64,000 nucleotides of DNA, taken from the NCBI RefSeq assembly GCF_009914755.1, contig NC_060941.1. The stretch is one strand, 5' to 3'. This DNA comes from the human T2T-CHM13v2.0 reference genome, Homo sapiens. A program made the translations under genes and the position numbers. This document shows positions 14,449 through 64,000 of the stretch, piece by piece; position 1 is the first letter of the stretch, and each line of letters begins with the position of its first letter. Under the pieces are notes generated by a model. That model made no database searches and was not told where the DNA came from. It saw only the letters and a list, made by a program, of their open reading frames with translations.

Positions 14449-15718
14449 CTAGTCGCTCTCGGGCCGGTACAGGTACCGCATCATCAGGCTGTCCACCTCT
14501 TTCTTGCGCTTCTTTTCCTCCTTCCTCGACGGCCGGTGCGTCTGCCCAGTTTCTTCACTTTCTGCAGCTGGGCCCTTCTTCACACTGGAGCAGCTGTGGC
14601 TGGAGACGGTCGAGCCGCTGGATGACGACGAGGAGGACTCAGACTCCGTCTCCGTTCTCTTTCTTCTCGACTTGGACTTCTTGCTCTTCCGAGAGCGCCC
14701 CTTCTTCCGCCTCTTGTGCTCTGAGGAAGCTTCGGAGCCGGAGCTGGAGCTGGAGCTGGAGCTGCTCCTTCCGCTCCTTCGCCGGCTCCGGCTCTTCCGG
14801 CCGCTGCGGGACCGGGACACATCAGCAGCAGAGGCGGAGCGGCGGATGCTGGCAGCTCGCTCCGGGGGGTCCAGTTGGGCGCTCCGGGCACTTTGGATGC
14901 TCTTCCTGTCATCCTCCTCGGAGTCGGGCTCCAGGCTGCTCCGCTGGAATGGAACAGGCTTGTAGCTCAAGACCTCGTTGACGGCAGCCTCCAGGTCTGG
15001 GTCCAGGTAGGAGTGACGGCTGACGGAGCGGACGCTGGAGCTGGGAGGCTCATCCACTGCCGAGGCAGAGCTGCGTGGCCGGGGTGGCACCGACAGACTG
15101 CGGGCCAGCGACGGGTGGCTGTACTGCGAGCAGGCCTCGCTCAGGGCCATACTGGCTCCATCATCCCACTCCTCTAGGCAGCTCCGGCCCAGGGACAGGC
15201 GAGAATCAGGGCTCTCCCGGCCTAGGCCAGAGGCCCGGCTCAGGGAAGGGCTGAGTGTCCTGGAGAGGCTGTCGAGCCGGGAGGTGCTGCGGCGGGAACC
15301 GGGCGAGCCCGACAGCGAGAAACTCAGGGAAGAGCCAGCCCTGTCTTCGCCAGAGCCCCGCCGCGTGGCCGAGGAGGCCCGGCTGACCGGTGCAGAGACG
15401 GTGGAGGCCGGGCTGAAGTCGGAGCCCCACCGCTTCTGCGGCCCCCGGCCAGCGCGCCCCCCGGTCCCCGAGCGGACGGAGCCGCACTCCTCCGGCTCCT
15501 CGGACTTCCTGCCTGGGCATGGCTCCTCCCTGGGGCCCACATGGGCCTTCCTAGGGGGCCTCTCGGGGGAGGCCGCCCGCTCGCTCAGGGAGGTGAAGAG
15601 CGAATCCGCGTCCCCGGTGCCCCCGATGGAGTCCTTTAGGGTGAGCCGCTTCCGATAGCTCAGGGAGCTCACCACCGAGGACGGCCTCTCCTCCACCCCC
15701 GGGGCCTCCTTAGAGAGG
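14449..15718 (-). CDS. MYO18A: Alternative Ser/Arg-rich stop-containing coding exon of MYO18A (gamma-type C-terminus, ~422 aa)
   Basis: Part of 477-aa ORF 14449-15882; CpG-rich and codon-biased; caacag acceptor at 15719-15720 is phase 2, matching exon 17034; long pyrimidine tract upstream; exact acceptor inferred. Confidence 0.85.
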
Positions 15719-55731: not shown

Positions 55732-55945
55732 CAGAAAACACCTTGTTCCCGCTGATGCCCGCGATGGTGGCCAGGTACTGCACCAGATGCTGGCAGCTGG
55801 TGGTCTTGCCACTGCCACTACTGCCCAGGAGGATGATTGACTGATCCTGACGGCTCATCAGCATCGCCCTGTATGCGGTCTGGGCCACTGCATAGATGTG
55901 GGGTGCCATGTCCTCCCGCCGACAACCCTTGAACATGTGCATCAC
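55732..55945 (-). CDS. MYO18A: MYO18A coding exon with P-loop GSSGSGKT
   Basis: aag acceptor, gtgagg donor; 214 nt; PHIYAVA...[14 protein letters not shown]. Confidence 0.97.
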
Positions 55946-56899: not shown

Positions 56900-56987
56900 C
56901 CAGTGAGAAGCCGTCCCTATGGACCAGCCACACCTTCTCCGTCTCATTCCAGGCCTCTTCTGCTGCAATCTGTTCTTCTGTTTTCGC
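56900..56987 (-). CDS. MYO18A: MYO18A coding exon (first shared exon in window), [29 protein letters not shown]
   Basis: cag acceptor, gtgagt donor; 88 nt, phase 0/1; recognised myosin-18A SH3-like region. Confidence 0.95.
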
Positions 56988-59385: not shown

Positions 59386-59421
59386 CTGGCTGTGGGCATG
59401 AGAGGCGGCCTCAGAGTCCAG
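59386..59421 (-). CDS. MYO18A: 36-nt alternative exon LDSEAASHAHSQ
   Basis: Long pyrimidine tract, ggtag|CTG...CAG|gtaggg; phase 0/0; resembles a 12-aa insert I recall before AKTEEQ in rodent Myo18a. Confidence 0.75.
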
Positions 59422-60625
59422 CTACCGACAGCAAGCAAAGGAGAGAGAGAGAAGAAGGGTGAAGATAAGCAGACCACTGGCACGCCCCCTTCAGCAAGTG
59501 CTCCTGAGTCAAGTGGGCCGGCACTCTCTAGTTGTCCAAGGCTCGGGGTGAAGGTGGGGGAGCTTGGTGCCAGGACCTGGGACCTGGCCTGAGCAGGTGA
59601 ACTGCACCCAGTCAAGGAGAGGCCAGGAAGGTGAAGAGACACTAGTGACCATCAGGCCTCTCAGAGGAGATGCTCCTCTAAGTCATTCCCGGTGGCCCGG
59701 GCAGGAGTCTGCCACTCTGCCTCTGGCCGCAGTCTCTCCTGGGCTGGCCATCCGGTCTATTCTGAATCAGGCTCCCTCTTCTGTGTGTCTACCAGGTCAG
59801 GCCACCTCACCACACCCAAGGCCTGGGCCCCCTGCCAGCCTCTTGCCTTATCTCCAGAGCATTTCTCAGCCTAGCTCCCCTGTGGCCACCAGCACAGAGC
59901 TGTTCCTTGCCTTCTAACACAGCCCAAGGGTGCCACTCCCTAGGCCAAGGGCTGTGTTCAGAGCTGTCGCCCTGCACCTCTCATAGAACACAGCTCCCAG
60001 CAGCTTGCAGTCTAGAATCTCTTCCTCAACCCCGACGTACCCTATAGCACTCCCACCTCTGCCAGCCAGGCACACCGACCCCATCTAGATCCAACCTGGG
60101 GACCACTTGACAGCTGCCCAAGAGCAAAGGCACTGTGGGCAAACCCTGTGGCCAGCCGTGACCTCTCTGGTTACTTAAAGCCCTGAAAAGCCTTTCTGGG
60201 GAGGAAGGCAAGTCAACCAGGACTTGGATGTTACCTGTTAGAAATCGGCAAGGAGTTATCAGGCCCCACCTGGGTCTAGAGAGCCAGGTCACCAAAAATA
60301 GCGACAGCAACCTTCCTTACCACCCGCCAGGCCCTGACACCAACACATGTCCTCGAGGCAGGACAATGTGGCCAGAGAAAGGGACTGGGCCCTGAGCGAG
60401 GAGGGGTGCCCTCCCACATGCACAGGACTTTGGGCTCTCTGGAGGAACCACTCTCCCCAGAGCACTTCTCTCATTTCTTTAAGAGAGAGCCCAACATGAG
60501 GGCCCACAGGCCGCCATGGAGCCATCTTCATGGTCAGCGCGCCTACAGACACACACAGGGTCCTGCCGCCAGCCTCAGGAAGAGGGCGGCCAGGGACTGG
60601 GACCCACACACAAGAGTGGCATTAC

Positions 60626-60700
60626 AGAAGCTGTGAAGATCCTCTCCAGCCGCTGGTGGGCCTCTTCCACGGGGGTCAGCTGGACCTTGGCAGCTCCTGC
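60626..60700 (-). CDS. MYO18A: Candidate 75-nt alternative exon AGAAKVQLTPVEEAHQRLERIFTAS
   Basis: tttaacctttag|GCA...TCT|gtaatg; phase 0/0, no stop; ACTAAT just upstream. Confidence 0.65.
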
Positions 60701-61844
60701 CTAAAGGTTAAACCACTATTAGTCCCAGCCCAGAAATGGAGAGGCCACAGCATGCGGAGCTCCCAGCCCAGGAAGCCACTGGGACCCACTAGGGAAGGGG
60801 AGCAGCGCCAGGGAGCAAGCCGCGCGGCAATCTGAGTTTTTAAACCATCAGATTAGAAAAAAAAGAACAAGTGCCTGGGAGTTCTGGGGTTATTTCTTCC
60901 CACCTGCCTATCTTGAGCACCAAATGGCCCTATTATCCCACTTGCCCTCTGGACCCTTCCCCAGGCCCAGGTGACAGGTGGCTAAACTCCAGGTCAGGGC
61001 ATGTCTCAGCTCCCAACTCCTCCCTTGTGAGAGGAGGAGGGACGGGGAGGAGGGAGGGGAGGGCAGCCGCCCGGGAACAGGACCACGACACTCCCCACCT
61101 GCTTATGGGTTCTCCAGAGCGACCAACAGTTCTGCCCATACCCTGCCCAAAATGCCCATGCCAGCTCCTCCCTGTGAGCAGGAACAGGCACTTCCCTGAT
61201 TCACAGAGTGGGCCAGGTGGGTGGGGGAAGCGGCGGCTGGCTTTTCTCTAAGTGCTGCAATGCCCAGGAAGAATGGGGAGCAACAAGGCTCCCCAGGTCC
61301 CAGGAGGTAACAGTCAGGGAGGGCCTCAAGGCCTCTCAGGCTATTCCCCCATACCCTCCAGACCCCTCTCCTTCCAGCCAGAAGGAGCCTGCATGAGCAC
61401 AGGGAAGTAGTGGCAAAACTTGATGCTCCTCTCCCACACCCTGGGAGGCCTCAGCAGGGTCCAAAAAAGGGAAGCTTGAAGAGAACTGTCCCCAACTCAG
61501 AGGCCAGCCAAGAAGGCAACACTTTCCAAGGGAAAGAGGCTGGACTGACCCTCCCTCCTGCTTCTCAGCCTCCTGCCCCACCCAGAGAACACTTTCTGGG
61601 AAGATAGGGTTGCCCCTATATCCCAAGGGGCCCACTGTACCCATCTGCCATCCAAGCACAGGGCTCCTCAAGAGTCCTGCTGCCAGATGGTCATGCTGGC
61701 CAGGCCTAAAGAAGGCAGTGATGGCAGTGAGGGCATCAATAACAACTGTTATTAGCACCACTATCAACGCTACCATTTATGGAGCACCCACCATGCCAGG
61801 GACCGGCTTGGAGCATTATCTGTATCATTTCTAATCTTCTGGTT

Positions 61845-62118
61845 ACTTAAAACCCTTATTAACCCTTATTTGCAATTCCAAAATCCCAAAAGCCCCCCCA
61901 AACAAAATATTTTTCTTAACTATTTTGGCGGCAAAACCTGGCAGTTTATCCTCTATGCCCCTGTAGTGTGAATATTCATAGATTTTGCTTTGGAAATATT
62001 AATGTTTGTTACACGTTGTTGCTCATTATGTATACTGTATGGCACTAAAATACAAAGATTACTAATTTCCAAAATACTGCCACACCCAGGGTATCAGAGA
62101 AGAAATTTTGGACCTGTA
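61845..62118. mobile_element. AT-rich Tigger/TcMar-like DNA transposon fossil, apparently inserted in a MIR
   Basis: Starts near cccttattt..aattccaaaatcc, ends ...ggacctg|ta; MIR-like sequence on both sides (61770-61840, 62118-62200). Confidence 0.45.
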
Positions 62119-62571
62119 TTATCCCCACTCAACAGAGGAAGTCTGAGATGGGACTTTGCTGAGGTCCCAGGGGATGAGTGGCTGGGAATGCAAGCCCAGA
62201 TCCCTGACTTGAGAAAACAGTCTTTCCTCCTGGAACTGATCTGCTGAGACTCTGATCCTCGGGTTTGGGTCTCAGGCCTCAAGCTGGCGCCATGTAGCTG
62301 GGGACCAGGCCCTGACTCCCTATGGCAAGGCCAACATGCTGCTTAGCAGTTTCCATCCCAGCCGCCAGGCCAGAGCCCAGGCAACTGCAGGGTCCGCATT
62401 GGGTTAGGGAAAGCCATGCAGCCCCTGCCGGCCATCAGCACACGACCCTGGGCCCAGCCTCTCGGTCATGCGGGGTTCGCTGAGGTCGCTTGGGGAAGCC
62501 GGCTGTGAGGGTGCCTGGCCCTTGAGCTAGGGTGGTGAGGGGCAGGAGCGGTTAGTGACACACTCTTGTAC

Positions 62572-63264
62572 CTCCTGCTTCACACCAGGGACTGGTGACT
62601 TGGACTGCTGCTCTCCAGTGAGGTCTGACTTCGGGCCGGTGGAGCCTGGGGTCACCAGCTCTTCCGGTGGGGCTGGGGAGCGCTGCTTCTTTGGGGCTTC
62701 AGGCTTGGCTGGGGATCCTGCTTTCTCAGGGGAGTCTGCCCAGTCTGGGGAGCCTGGCTCCTGGCTGGAGGGCTTCTCCCCCTTCCCAGAAGACTGCTTG
62801 CCGCGGGCCTTGTGCTCCTTGCCCCTGCCCCGAGACATCAGGCTCCGCAGGCCCAGGGAGAGCTCATCCTTGGCTGCCTCCTTCTTCACTGCAGGCTTAG
62901 GCGGAGCAGGGGGAGGTGGGGGAGGGGGTGGCGGCTTGGGACTAGAAGCTGCCTTTTCTCCCCTCTTGCTTCGAGTCGGGTGCTCGGGGGACTTGACTCC
63001 TCTGCCTGGGGTCTCCTTGGCATTCCCAAGCTCCTCGCTGGGCAGCACCTTACTCACCACCTTCCTCACTGCATTTGCCACCCGCTTCCGGGACAGGCCC
63101 TGGGCCTCTTCGCTTAGGCCTTCTGCTGTGGCAGCTCCCGGGCCGTTCATGGCGAGTGTGGGTGCAGGGCTCCTGGCTCTCTGGGAAGTCTCTGGGGGTA
63201 TCGGGCTGGTGGGAGGCTGAGGACTCCTAGATGGGCCACTGCCTTCCTTTGAGCTGCCCTCTAG
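62572..63264 (-). CDS. MYO18A: Alternative Pro-rich coding exon of MYO18A (gamma-type N-terminal extension, 231 aa)
   Basis: Open frame LEGSSKEG...KPPPPPPPPPAPPKP...VKQE; tgtag acceptor and GAG|gtacaa donor, phase 0/0, compatible with exon 56987; boundaries inferred. Confidence 0.8.
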
Positions 63265-63773
63265 CTACAGTCATACAAATACAGGTAGACATTAGCATCA
63301 CCCCTGCAGCCCTGCCCATCCCATGCAGAGGGAATAAGAAGGTGTGACCTCACGCCCTGGAACAGATCTCCCATTCATCTACCAAGCAACACATGGCTCC
63401 ACGAGGCTACCCAGGAAGCCCACTTTCCATCTTACAGATAGGACAATTGCAGCTAAGAGTCTGGCTTCTTTCCCACAAAGCACAATCAGCACAATCAGGT
63501 ACTACTGTCACCTGCTGTCTATCCCCAGACTTAGCATGGACCTGTGAGATGCCGGCACAGAGCGCCGAGAGGCCTATGAGGTGCTCTGGGGTTACTGGCT
63601 TTGTGTCAGGGCAGCAACCAAGTCCCATTCTAGGTGAGCCCACTGCCTCGCAGCCCAGACACAGCAGAGATGGAGCATGGACACAGCAGAGATGGAGCAT
63701 GGAGAGGTCAAACAGCCGAGTCCCACCTCCATTCCTACCACCAATCCCAGGCCTAACTCCAGGGCGTCCTGAC

Positions 63774-63797
63774 CTTTGTAGTCCTTGGTCCTTCCAT
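63774..63797 (-). CDS. MYO18A: Candidate start-codon segment MEGPRTTK (exon 63774-63837)
   Basis: ttttttccttcag acceptor at 63838-63839; gtgATGg strong Kozak context; AAG|gtcagg donor in phase 0 with exon 63264. Confidence 0.4.
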
Positions 63798-64000
63798 CAC
63801 CTGTTTTCCGGGCAGTCAGACCAAGAGCCTACCCATCCTGAAGGAAAAAATGATCAGGGAGCTCTTCCTGGCCCCAAGACATGCCAGGCCTCCTCCTCAC
63901 AGCGTCCCTCGTCTGCGGCCACTGTCTGCCCTTCATCTATGTTCTCAAGCACTGACGAGCCCAGCACGGGCCAGGAAGCTTCCACTTCAGCCTGCTTTCT

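What the first reader, a model, noticed from the sequence alone, without database searches (positions are those of the whole stretch)
59386..63837. A chain of phase-0 intronic exons builds a PDZ-less, polyproline N-terminus
Seen: four segments with canonical splice sites whose phase-0 junctions join in frame to AKTEEQ (56987). They are MEGPRTTK (63774-63797), 231 aa Pro/Ser/Lys-rich with P9 (62572-63264), AGAAKVQLTPVEEAHQRLERIFTAS (60626-60700) and LDSEAASHAHSQ (59386-59421), 276 aa in all. The three short ones are invisible in the ORF track. Helical-looking islands (LSRKRVANAVRKVVSKVLP, DELSLGLRSLMSRGR, EEAHQRLERIF) are candidate binding motifs. Inference: this is the alternative N-terminus paired with the Ser-rich tail, so one gene can exchange both ends around an unchanged motor and rod.
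Basis: partly seen in the sequence, partly recalled or inferred. Interest (0 to 1): 0.75.

Follow-up and report, generated by a model that had tools for sequence, protein, structure and literature searches.

The report
Human MYO18A gamma-isoform N-terminal exons

Summary
All four segments are at the stated coordinates, with AG/GT borders and phase-0 joins. Three are real coding exons: the 231-codon Pro-rich exon (63264-62572), the 25-codon exon (60700-60626) and the 12-codon exon (59421-59386). They match Myo18A models from mammals, birds and reptiles. A chimpanzee model maps onto them at 96-99% identity. Together they form the PDZ-less, polyproline N-terminal extension of Myo18A-gamma. That isoform was described in mouse heart in 2019, paired with a Ser-rich tail. 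The tail exon is also open in this window.

The proposed start, MEGPRTTK, is not supported. None of the 109 stored sequences carrying the conserved basic-helix motif starts that way. By sequence alone it is one of 118 equivalent ATG...GT candidates. Forty-eight of the 109 start MAFSSRFAFWEQK|VKEEDK...EEGA. Those two exons lie 2.1 and 4.5 kb beyond the window end.

In this assembly the first of them has a GA where the donor GT should be, so the human start is unresolved.

The kind is already known. The donor anomaly is the only new lead.

The parts
62572..63264 (-). Pro/Ser/Lys-rich exon of the gamma N-terminal extension. 231 codons, phase 0 at both ends. Holds the P9 run (62908-62934), the basic helix RKRVANAVRKVVSKV (63046-63090) and the helix KDELSLGLRSLMS (62833-62871). 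An in-frame internal ATG (MNGPG) lies at 63150.
   Evidence: sequence. (orthologues at 70-90% identity in mammals, about 45% in reptiles and birds). (chimpanzee model P0059 residues 34-264, 98.7%). (conservation peaks). (AF2 helices at residues 59-73 and 132-144). Splice sites are weak: acceptor 1.9, donor 4.4 on a PWM built from 40 and 39 annotated sites.
60626..60700 (-). Optional 25-codon cassette exon AGAAKVQLTPVEEAHQRLERIFTAS, phase 0.
   Evidence: Present in chimpanzee P0059 and in 66 of 100 models (49 + 17). EEAHxRLERIF is also conserved in a turtle model, P0019. Very weak splice sites: donor -2.8, acceptor -2.2. GTGTG occurs four times and TGCATG once within 250 nt downstream.
59386..59421 (-). 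Optional 12-codon cassette exon LDSEAASHAHSQ, phase 0. Not specific to gamma.
   Evidence: Listed in the hub's RefSeq table as an exon of other transcripts. Present in 68 of 100 models (49 + 19). Donor 10.7, acceptor 6.4.
56900..56987 (-). First exon common to all isoforms ([13 protein letters not shown]...). Acceptor for every N-terminal variant.
   Evidence: Hub RefSeq table..
63774..63837 (-). Bounded by the acceptor cattttttccttcag| at 63837 and the donor AAG|GTCAGG, which makes a 64-nt candidate internal exon. Status unproven.
   Evidence: PWM donor 7.8, acceptor 7.9, each in the top 4% of GT or AG sites in the intron. 0 of 109 stored sequences start this way. One beaver model, P0016, begins TTK|LEGSSK. 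Read after ..EEGA, the exon gives D-G-stop (read).
63838..64000 (-). Window end, placeholder for two parts that lie OUTSIDE the window and cannot be given as window coordinates. (a) The second gamma coding exon VKEEDKTLPKPGSPGKEEGA at chr17:30074083-30074142 (window-equivalent 66083-66142), phase 0 at both ends. (b) The first gamma coding exon MAFSSRFAFWEQK at chr17:30076498-30076536 (window-equivalent 68498-68536), with start context GCCATGG and a donor that reads AAG|GAAAGT, GA instead of GT. The stretch 63838-64000 itself is intron as far as seen.
   Evidence: Exon (a): acceptor 10.4, donor GCT|GTAAGT. Exon (b): the only match to residues 1-14 that the whole-genome search reported (E 5.9). 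tblastn found no match to residues 1-33 of orthologues anywhere in the window.
14449..15718 (-). Ser-rich C-terminal exon of the gamma isoform. About 423 codons, open to the stop (...RYLYRPESD*).
   Evidence: P0059 residues 1959-2381, 99%.. Not among the exons in the hub's RefSeq table.

Best explanation
Exons 63264-62572, 60700-60626 and 59421-59386 are the human orthologues of the N-terminal extension of Myo18A-gamma. This is the striated-muscle isoform of myosin 18A.

Inferred from the exon layout and orthologue models: gamma transcripts begin inside the long intron downstream of the KE/PDZ exons. They pass through two short coding exons that lie beyond the window end, then splice into the Pro-rich exon. 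They include or skip the 75-nt and 36-nt cassettes and join the common exon at 56987. Every junction is phase 0 and every cassette length is a multiple of three, so any combination keeps the frame.

The extension is predicted to be mostly disordered. It carries a polyproline run and short conserved helices. By analogy with the mouse work, these are the likely docking elements that place the protein in the sarcomeric A-band. At the other end of the gene the same isoform uses a Ser-rich terminal exon (14449-15718).

Shown here: the sequence, the conservation and the predicted helices. Taken from the literature: muscle expression and A-band localisation, in mouse and rat cells. Unresolved: which start codon is used in human.
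For: - Borders and frames.
- Orthologues of the exon translation: 19 hits at E<=0.001 among 8000 scored candidates; 17 hits in 1.84 billion representatives; 180 hits among 5442 candidates when an elephant gamma N-terminus was the query.
- Chimpanzee model P0059 (2381 aa) maps exon by exon onto the window. It includes 63264-62572 (98.7%), 60700-60626 and the Ser-rich exon (99%).
- Among 100 models with the Pro-rich exon and KTEEQ: both cassettes in 49, the 25-codon exon only in 17, the 12-codon exon only in 19, neither in 15. The Ser-rich tail is present in 72.
- Conservation peaks over 52 distinct N-termini fall on residues 1-20, the basic helix, the polyproline run, DELS.GLRSLMSRGR and EEAHQRLERIF.
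- AF2 gives mean pLDDT 55, with helices only at residues 59-73 and 132-144. No Pfam family matches 3 of 3 proteins scanned.
Against: - No human transcript or peptide was seen here. Apart from the 36-nt exon, none of these exons is in the hub's RefSeq table.
- The orthologue support comes from predicted models (Gnomon, Ensembl and similar). Many are isoforms of the same species, so they are not independent and are not experimental.
- The donor of the conserved first coding exon reads GA in this assembly. The canonical gamma start may therefore not be spliced in this genome.
- Splice sites of the Pro-rich and 25-codon exons are weak.
- Human-chimpanzee identity is too high to show ongoing constraint in human.
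- The primary paper (Horsthemke 2019, PMC6509511) is not held. Its exon map, and any human data in it or its supplements, were not seen.
Confidence: 0.85

Rival explanations
1. Human transcripts start translation at MEGPRTTK (63797) in a 5' exon ending at 63774, which splices to 63264 and gives a 276-residue extension. This could be a human or primate replacement for the canonical start.
For: - Good start context (GTGATGG).
- Donor 7.8 and an upstream acceptor 7.9, each in the top 4% of sites in the intron.
- One beaver model, P0016, begins TTK|LEGSSK, which matches the last three codons.
- The canonical first-exon donor is GA in this assembly, so another start may be needed.
Against: - 0 of 109 stored sequences with the basic-helix motif start this way. 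48 start MAFSS, 27 have the alpha start, 19 start at the internal MNG.
- There are 118 equivalent chance candidates, and this one ranks 7th.
- As a 64-nt internal exon it would break the MAFSS frame (D-G-stop).
- A 98-aa database protein, P0025, is identical to the human exon over 77 residues and starts at MNGPG, not upstream.
Confidence: 0.15
2. In human the extension is made but begins at the internal Met, MNGPGAAT (63150), or at some other upstream exon. It would then lack the Myo18B-like 19 residues, because the first coding exon cannot be spliced.
For: - The donor reads AAG|GAAAGT. With T at +2 the same site would score 11.0, against a median of 8.5 and a maximum of 12.2 for 39 annotated donors.
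- 19 of 109 models start at the homologous MNG.
- P0025 starts there and is 100% identical to the human exon over 77 residues.
- Other species' models show varied first exons joined to VKEEDK or LEGSSK.
Against: - The GA may be a variant private to the CHM13 genome.
- The chimpanzee, mangabey, marmoset and mouse-lemur models all carry MAFSS.
- The 13 codons of the human exon are intact.
- MNG-start models may simply be 5'-incomplete predictions.
Confidence: 0.3
3. The Pro-rich exon is, at least partly, a cassette used in transcripts from the alpha promoter. The resulting protein carries KE/PDZ and the polyproline segment together.
For: In one search, 26 of 100 models combine the MFNL.. alpha start with the Pro-rich exon (27 of 109). 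Dog, turtle, alligator and hamster models are among them.
Against: These are combinatorial predictions. The mouse protein is described as lacking KE and PDZ. A single-cell splicing study attributes gamma to an internal start site (PMC11285346).
Confidence: 0.15
4. In human the stretch is not translated. It would be an intronic relic or only a regulatory element, retained because too little time has passed for it to decay.
For: The hub lists a RefSeq enhancer at 62197-62732 that overlaps the exon's 3' end. No RefSeq transcript uses the exon. The canonical start has a GA donor.
Against: All six gamma-specific coding pieces read open, with no stop: 39, 60, 693, 75, 36 and about 1270 nt. The splice dinucleotides of all but one junction are intact.
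Confidence: 0.07

Closest known systems
Mouse Myo18A-gamma (Horsthemke et al. 2019, J Biol Chem; seen only as cited and described in PMC11112018, PMC7900500 and bioRxiv 10.1101/2021.04.14.439860)
   Same: No KE-rich or PDZ part. A polyproline (PPII) stretch in a long N-terminal extension. A Ser-rich C-terminal extension. The same motor and rod. The first 19 residues resemble Myo18B, and MAFSSRFAFWEQKVKEEDK is exactly 19 residues long. The head is said to start at residue 281 in mouse. The human chain from MAFSS would have 301 residues before AKTEEQ with both cassettes, or 264 with neither (arithmetic).
   Different: This is the human locus. No RefSeq transcript uses these exons. The donor of the first coding exon is GA in this assembly. 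No expression or localisation data for human were seen.
Myo18A-alpha (MysPDZ)
   Same: Same gene, and the same acceptor at 56987. The N-terminal extension is thought to govern localisation.
   Different: Alpha uses the upstream KE-rich and PDZ exons, which lie outside the window. Pfam finds no PDZ or any other family in the gamma exon.
Myo18B N-terminal extension
   Same: A long, low-complexity N-terminal extension in a sarcomeric class-18 myosin. The review states that the first 19 residues are highly similar.
   Different: Not tested here. The whole-genome search with the 33-residue gamma start found only the two MYO18A exons. The review reports low identity for the rest of the extension.

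Membership tests
Myo18A-gamma N-terminal extension | Lacks the KE-rich sequence and the PDZ domain | tested here: met
   No Pfam family in 3 of 3 proteins scanned. The exons lie downstream of the alpha-specific exons. MAFSS-start models have no PDZ annotation.
Myo18A-gamma N-terminal extension | Contains a polyproline (PPII) stretch | tested here: met
   Nine consecutive prolines at residues 111-119 of the exon translation. The run is conserved. pLDDT for that 10-residue block is 78.
Myo18A-gamma N-terminal extension | Orthology of the exon chain joined in frame to the common AKTEEQ exon | tested here: met
   Chimpanzee model P0059 maps at 96-99% onto 63264-62572, 60700-60626 and 56987. 100 models carry the chain in four cassette combinations.
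Myo18A-gamma N-terminal extension | Extreme N-terminus of 19 residues shared with Myo18B (MAFSSRFAFWEQKVKEEDK) | tested here: inconclusive
   Both coding exons exist in the human genome outside the window. The first has a GA donor. The likeness to Myo18B was taken from the review and not tested.
Myo18A-gamma N-terminal extension | Paired with the Ser-rich C-terminal extension | tested here: met
   The exon at 14449-15718 is open and 99% identical to the chimpanzee model's tail. 37 of 47 MAFSS-start models end in this tail. This shows coding capacity and model pairing, not pairing on a human mRNA.
Myo18A-gamma N-terminal extension | Expression restricted to heart and skeletal muscle; A-band localisation | not testable with these tools
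   Known only from mouse and rat-cell work described.

The most novel reading that the evidence does not exclude
In humans, not only in CHM13, the near-perfect donor of the conserved first gamma coding exon has changed from GT to GA. Human Myo18A-gamma would then be unable to carry the Myo18B-like 13+20-residue head found from birds to chimpanzee. That would be a human-lineage change at the tip of a sarcomeric protein that is essential in mouse heart.
Probability: 0.3. Interest if true: 0.6.

Novelty: already known. Interest (0 to 1): 0.3.

Why it matters
Deleting Myo18a in mouse is lethal to the embryo, with disorganised cardiac sarcomeres, and gamma is the isoform detected in heart. The human RefSeq table given for this window lacks the gamma-specific exons apart from the 36-nt cassette. 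Variants in about 2.1 kb of human coding sequence would therefore be read as intronic when cardiomyopathy or myopathy patients are screened. That sequence comprises the Pro-rich exon, the 25-codon exon, the two start exons and the Ser-rich exon. The exon map given here, and the question of which start human muscle uses, are practical annotation points. They are not a new biological principle.

Tried and rejected
- The primary JBC 2019 paper could not be read by DOI or PMC id.
- Literature searches for a human gamma isoform found no description of a human gamma transcript in the passages I read: 'Myo18Agamma' gave 9 papers; the phrase 'Myo18A gamma' gave 0; MYO18A + long-read + heart gave 1; four peptide strings gave 0. 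PMC7900500 gives human sizes for alpha and beta only.
- tblastn of orthologue N-termini against the window found nothing for residues 1-33, so the start is not in the window.
- I looked for database models that start with MEGPRTTK by searching with the beaver model's first 80 residues. Of 102 hits, only three share its odd internal splice, and none shows MEGPRTTK.
- Pfam found nothing.
- The fold search was not run, because the model is mostly below pLDDT 60.
- No complex prediction was sent, because no specific partner is claimed.
- I considered a homologous alternative first exon at 68352-68266 (29 codons, donor 10.6, phase 0) against the cattle model's MPHHLGK... start. The likeness is too thin to claim.
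- Scans for splicing-factor motifs give only leads. The motif identities (RBFOX UGCAUG, GU-rich for RBM24) are recalled, not taken from a call.
Full report
**Observation**

All features below were read on the minus strand.
- The ATG at 63797 opens eight codons (MEGPRTTK) that end at 63774 before a GT.
- 63264-62572 is bounded by AG and GT and translates without a stop into 231 residues rich in Pro, Ser and Lys, with a run of nine prolines.
- 60700-60626 (25 codons) and 59421-59386 (12 codons) are likewise bounded by AG and GT.
- 56987 opens with AKTEEQ after an AG.

Open frames are cheap in this G+C-rich stretch. The opposite strand of the large exon also carries a 229-codon stop-free frame. 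The case therefore has to rest on comparison with other species, not on ORF length.

**Are the exons real?**

The translation of the large exon (P0001) found Myo18A proteins.
- 19 hits at E<=0.001 among 8000 scored candidates of 406-2000 residues.
- 17 hits among 1.84 billion cluster representatives.
- With an elephant gamma-type N-terminus as query, 180 hits among 5442 candidates of 1096-3488 residues.

Identity to the human exon is 70-90% in mammals and about 45% in turtles, alligator and birds.

A chimpanzee model (P0059, isoform X5, 2381 residues) maps exon by exon onto the window:
- residues 34-264 on 63264-62572 (98.7%);
- residues 265-290 on 60700-60626;
- residue 290 onward on 56987;
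- the last 423 residues on 15720-14452 (99%).

The 25-codon and 12-codon exons recur in other species, with whole-codon length differences. A fox model has 26 residues for the first, and a turtle model reads EEAHRRLERIF and LEPVASPSAQSQ.

Among 100 stored models that contain the basic-helix motif and KTEEQ:
- 49 have both small exons;
- 17 have only the 25-codon exon;
- 19 have only the 12-codon exon;
- 15 have neither.

That classification is by regular expression and is approximate. Two models with a retained intron and one divergent turtle model fell into the '25-codon only' class.

These are predicted models, often several per species, so they show conservation of coding capacity rather than independent experiments.

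**What it is**

The literature passages I could read describe mouse Myo18A-gamma as follows:
- a heart and skeletal-muscle isoform larger than alpha;
- an N-terminal extension that lacks the KE-rich sequence and the PDZ domain and contains a polyproline helix;
- a Ser-rich C-terminus;
- localisation of the GFP-tagged protein to the sarcomeric A-band;
- first 19 residues resembling Myo18B.

Sources are PMC11112018 (passages and section 6), PMC7900500 (passages), bioRxiv 10.1101/2021.04.14.439860 (passages) and PMC11285346 (passages).

The primary paper (Horsthemke 2019) is not held.

The Ser-rich exon is intact in this window, about 423 codons to ...RYLYRPESD-stop. In one search, 72 of 100 models with the Pro-rich exon end in that tail, including 37 of the 47 that start with MAFSS.

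**The start**

None of the 109 stored sequences with the basic-helix motif begins with MEGPRTTK.
- 48 begin MAFSS.
- 27 carry the alpha start (MFNL...).
- 19 begin at the internal Met (MNG...).
- 15 begin otherwise; one of these is the query itself.

The MAFSS models read MAFSSRFAFWEQK|VKEEDKTLPKPG.PGKEEGA|LEGSSK..., and the first 19 residues fit the review's statement. tblastn of these N-termini against the window matches only from residue 34 onward.

A search of the window's own genome placed the missing residues in two exons beyond the window end:
- VKEEDKTLPKPGSPGKEEGA at chr17:30074083-30074142 (window-equivalent 66083-66142);
- MAFSSRFAFWEQK at chr17:30076498-30076536 (68498-68536).

There are 118 stop-free ATG...|GT phase-0 candidates in the 6.8 kb upstream of 63264, and MEGPRTTK ranks 7th by donor score.

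It is not excluded, for three reasons.
- It has an acceptor at 63837 and a donor at 63774. Each scores in the top 4% of AG or GT sites in the intron.
- One beaver model starts TTK|LEGSSK.
- As a 64-nt exon it would close the MAFSS frame (D-G-stop) and offer its own ATG.

**An anomaly outside the window**

The donor of the MAFSS exon reads AAG|GAAAGT in this assembly. With T at +2 the site would score 11.0 on a matrix built from the gene's 39 annotated donors (median 8.5, maximum 12.2). It therefore looks like a consensus donor with a single change.

The next GT, four bases on, would shift the frame into a stop (read).

Chimpanzee, mangabey, marmoset and mouse-lemur models all carry MAFSS. I could not read their DNA, and I cannot tell whether the GA is private to CHM13 or general in humans.

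A 98-residue database protein (P0025) is identical to the human exon over its first 77 residues and starts at the internal MNGPG. The hub's RefSeq table has no gamma transcript. Both facts fit either reading.

**How it probably works**

The cassettes are symmetrical: 693, 75 and 36 nt, all phase 0. Any combination therefore keeps the frame.

The Pro-rich and 25-codon exons have weak splice sites (acceptor 1.9 and donor 4.4; acceptor -2.2 and donor -2.8; the medians for annotated sites are 9.4 and 8.5). This is typical of regulated exons.

Each of these two exons has a TGCATG within 250 nt downstream (0.1 expected). The 25-codon exon also has four overlapping GTGTG within 75 nt (0.5 expected per 250 nt). 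I recall these as RBFOX and GU-rich (RBM24-type) enhancer motifs. This is a lead, not a result.

Conservation over 52 distinct N-termini peaks at:
- residues 1-20;
- AQGLSRKRVANAVRKVVS.VLP;
- the polyproline run;
- KDELS.GLRSLMSRGRGK;
- EEAHQRLERIF.

AlphaFold2, run on the exon with a 13-sequence alignment, gives a mostly disordered chain (mean pLDDT 55). It has two helices, at residues 59-73 and 132-144. The 10-residue block covering most of the proline run has mean pLDDT 78.

The third island, in the 25-codon exon, was not folded. That they are docking motifs for sarcomeric partners is inference.

**Verdict**

The finding is real in three of its four parts. It corresponds to a published isoform and to many database models, so the kind is already known.

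Its value is for human annotation, since the hub's RefSeq table lists none of the gamma-specific exons. It also carries one open question, the GA donor, which lies outside the window and needs population and RNA data.

Noticed in passing
Outside the window: chr17:30076496-30076497 (window-equivalent 68496-68497), L007 about 1502-1503: The donor of the conserved first gamma coding exon (MAFSSRFAFWEQK) reads GA instead of GT. The rest of the site is consensus (AAG|G.AAGT).
   Followed up: partly
window 14449-15718 (-): The Ser-rich C-terminal exon of the gamma isoform is open for about 423 codons to its stop and is 99% identical to the chimpanzee model. It is not among the exons in the hub's RefSeq table.
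   Followed up: partly
window 63080-63082 (-): An internal donor, CGG|GTGGCA, lies inside the Pro-rich exon. Three Ensembl-type models (lynx, beaver, chinchilla) use it and jump straight to the exon starting at 55945 (VMHMFKGC), skipping the SH3-like region.
   Followed up: partly
window 62420 and 60422; 60554-60611 (-): A TGCATG lies 150-205 nt downstream of both the Pro-rich exon and the 25-codon exon. GU-rich repeats lie just downstream of the 25-codon exon. These are possible muscle splicing enhancers.
   Followed up: partly
window 63150-62920 (-): A 98-residue database protein (P0025) is 100% identical to the human exon from the internal Met MNGPG up to the proline run. Its last 21 residues are found nowhere in the window.
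   Followed up: partly
Outside the window: window-equivalent 68266-68352 (-): A 29-codon ATG-initiated open segment ends in a strong phase-0 donor (score 10.6), between the two gamma start exons. It would join VKEEDK in frame. Only a faint likeness to the alternative first exon of cattle models.
   Followed up: partly
L007 about 1830-2540 (upstream of the MAFSS exon): Two Alu-like repeats lie within 1 kb upstream of the gamma start exon. Identified by eye only.
   Followed up: no
Orthologue models (P0017, P0018, P0020, P0007, dog P0090 and others): Many predicted isoforms combine the alpha KE/PDZ N-terminus with the Pro-rich exon, and some also carry the Ser-rich tail (up to 2740 residues). 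Whether such molecules exist is untested.
   Followed up: no
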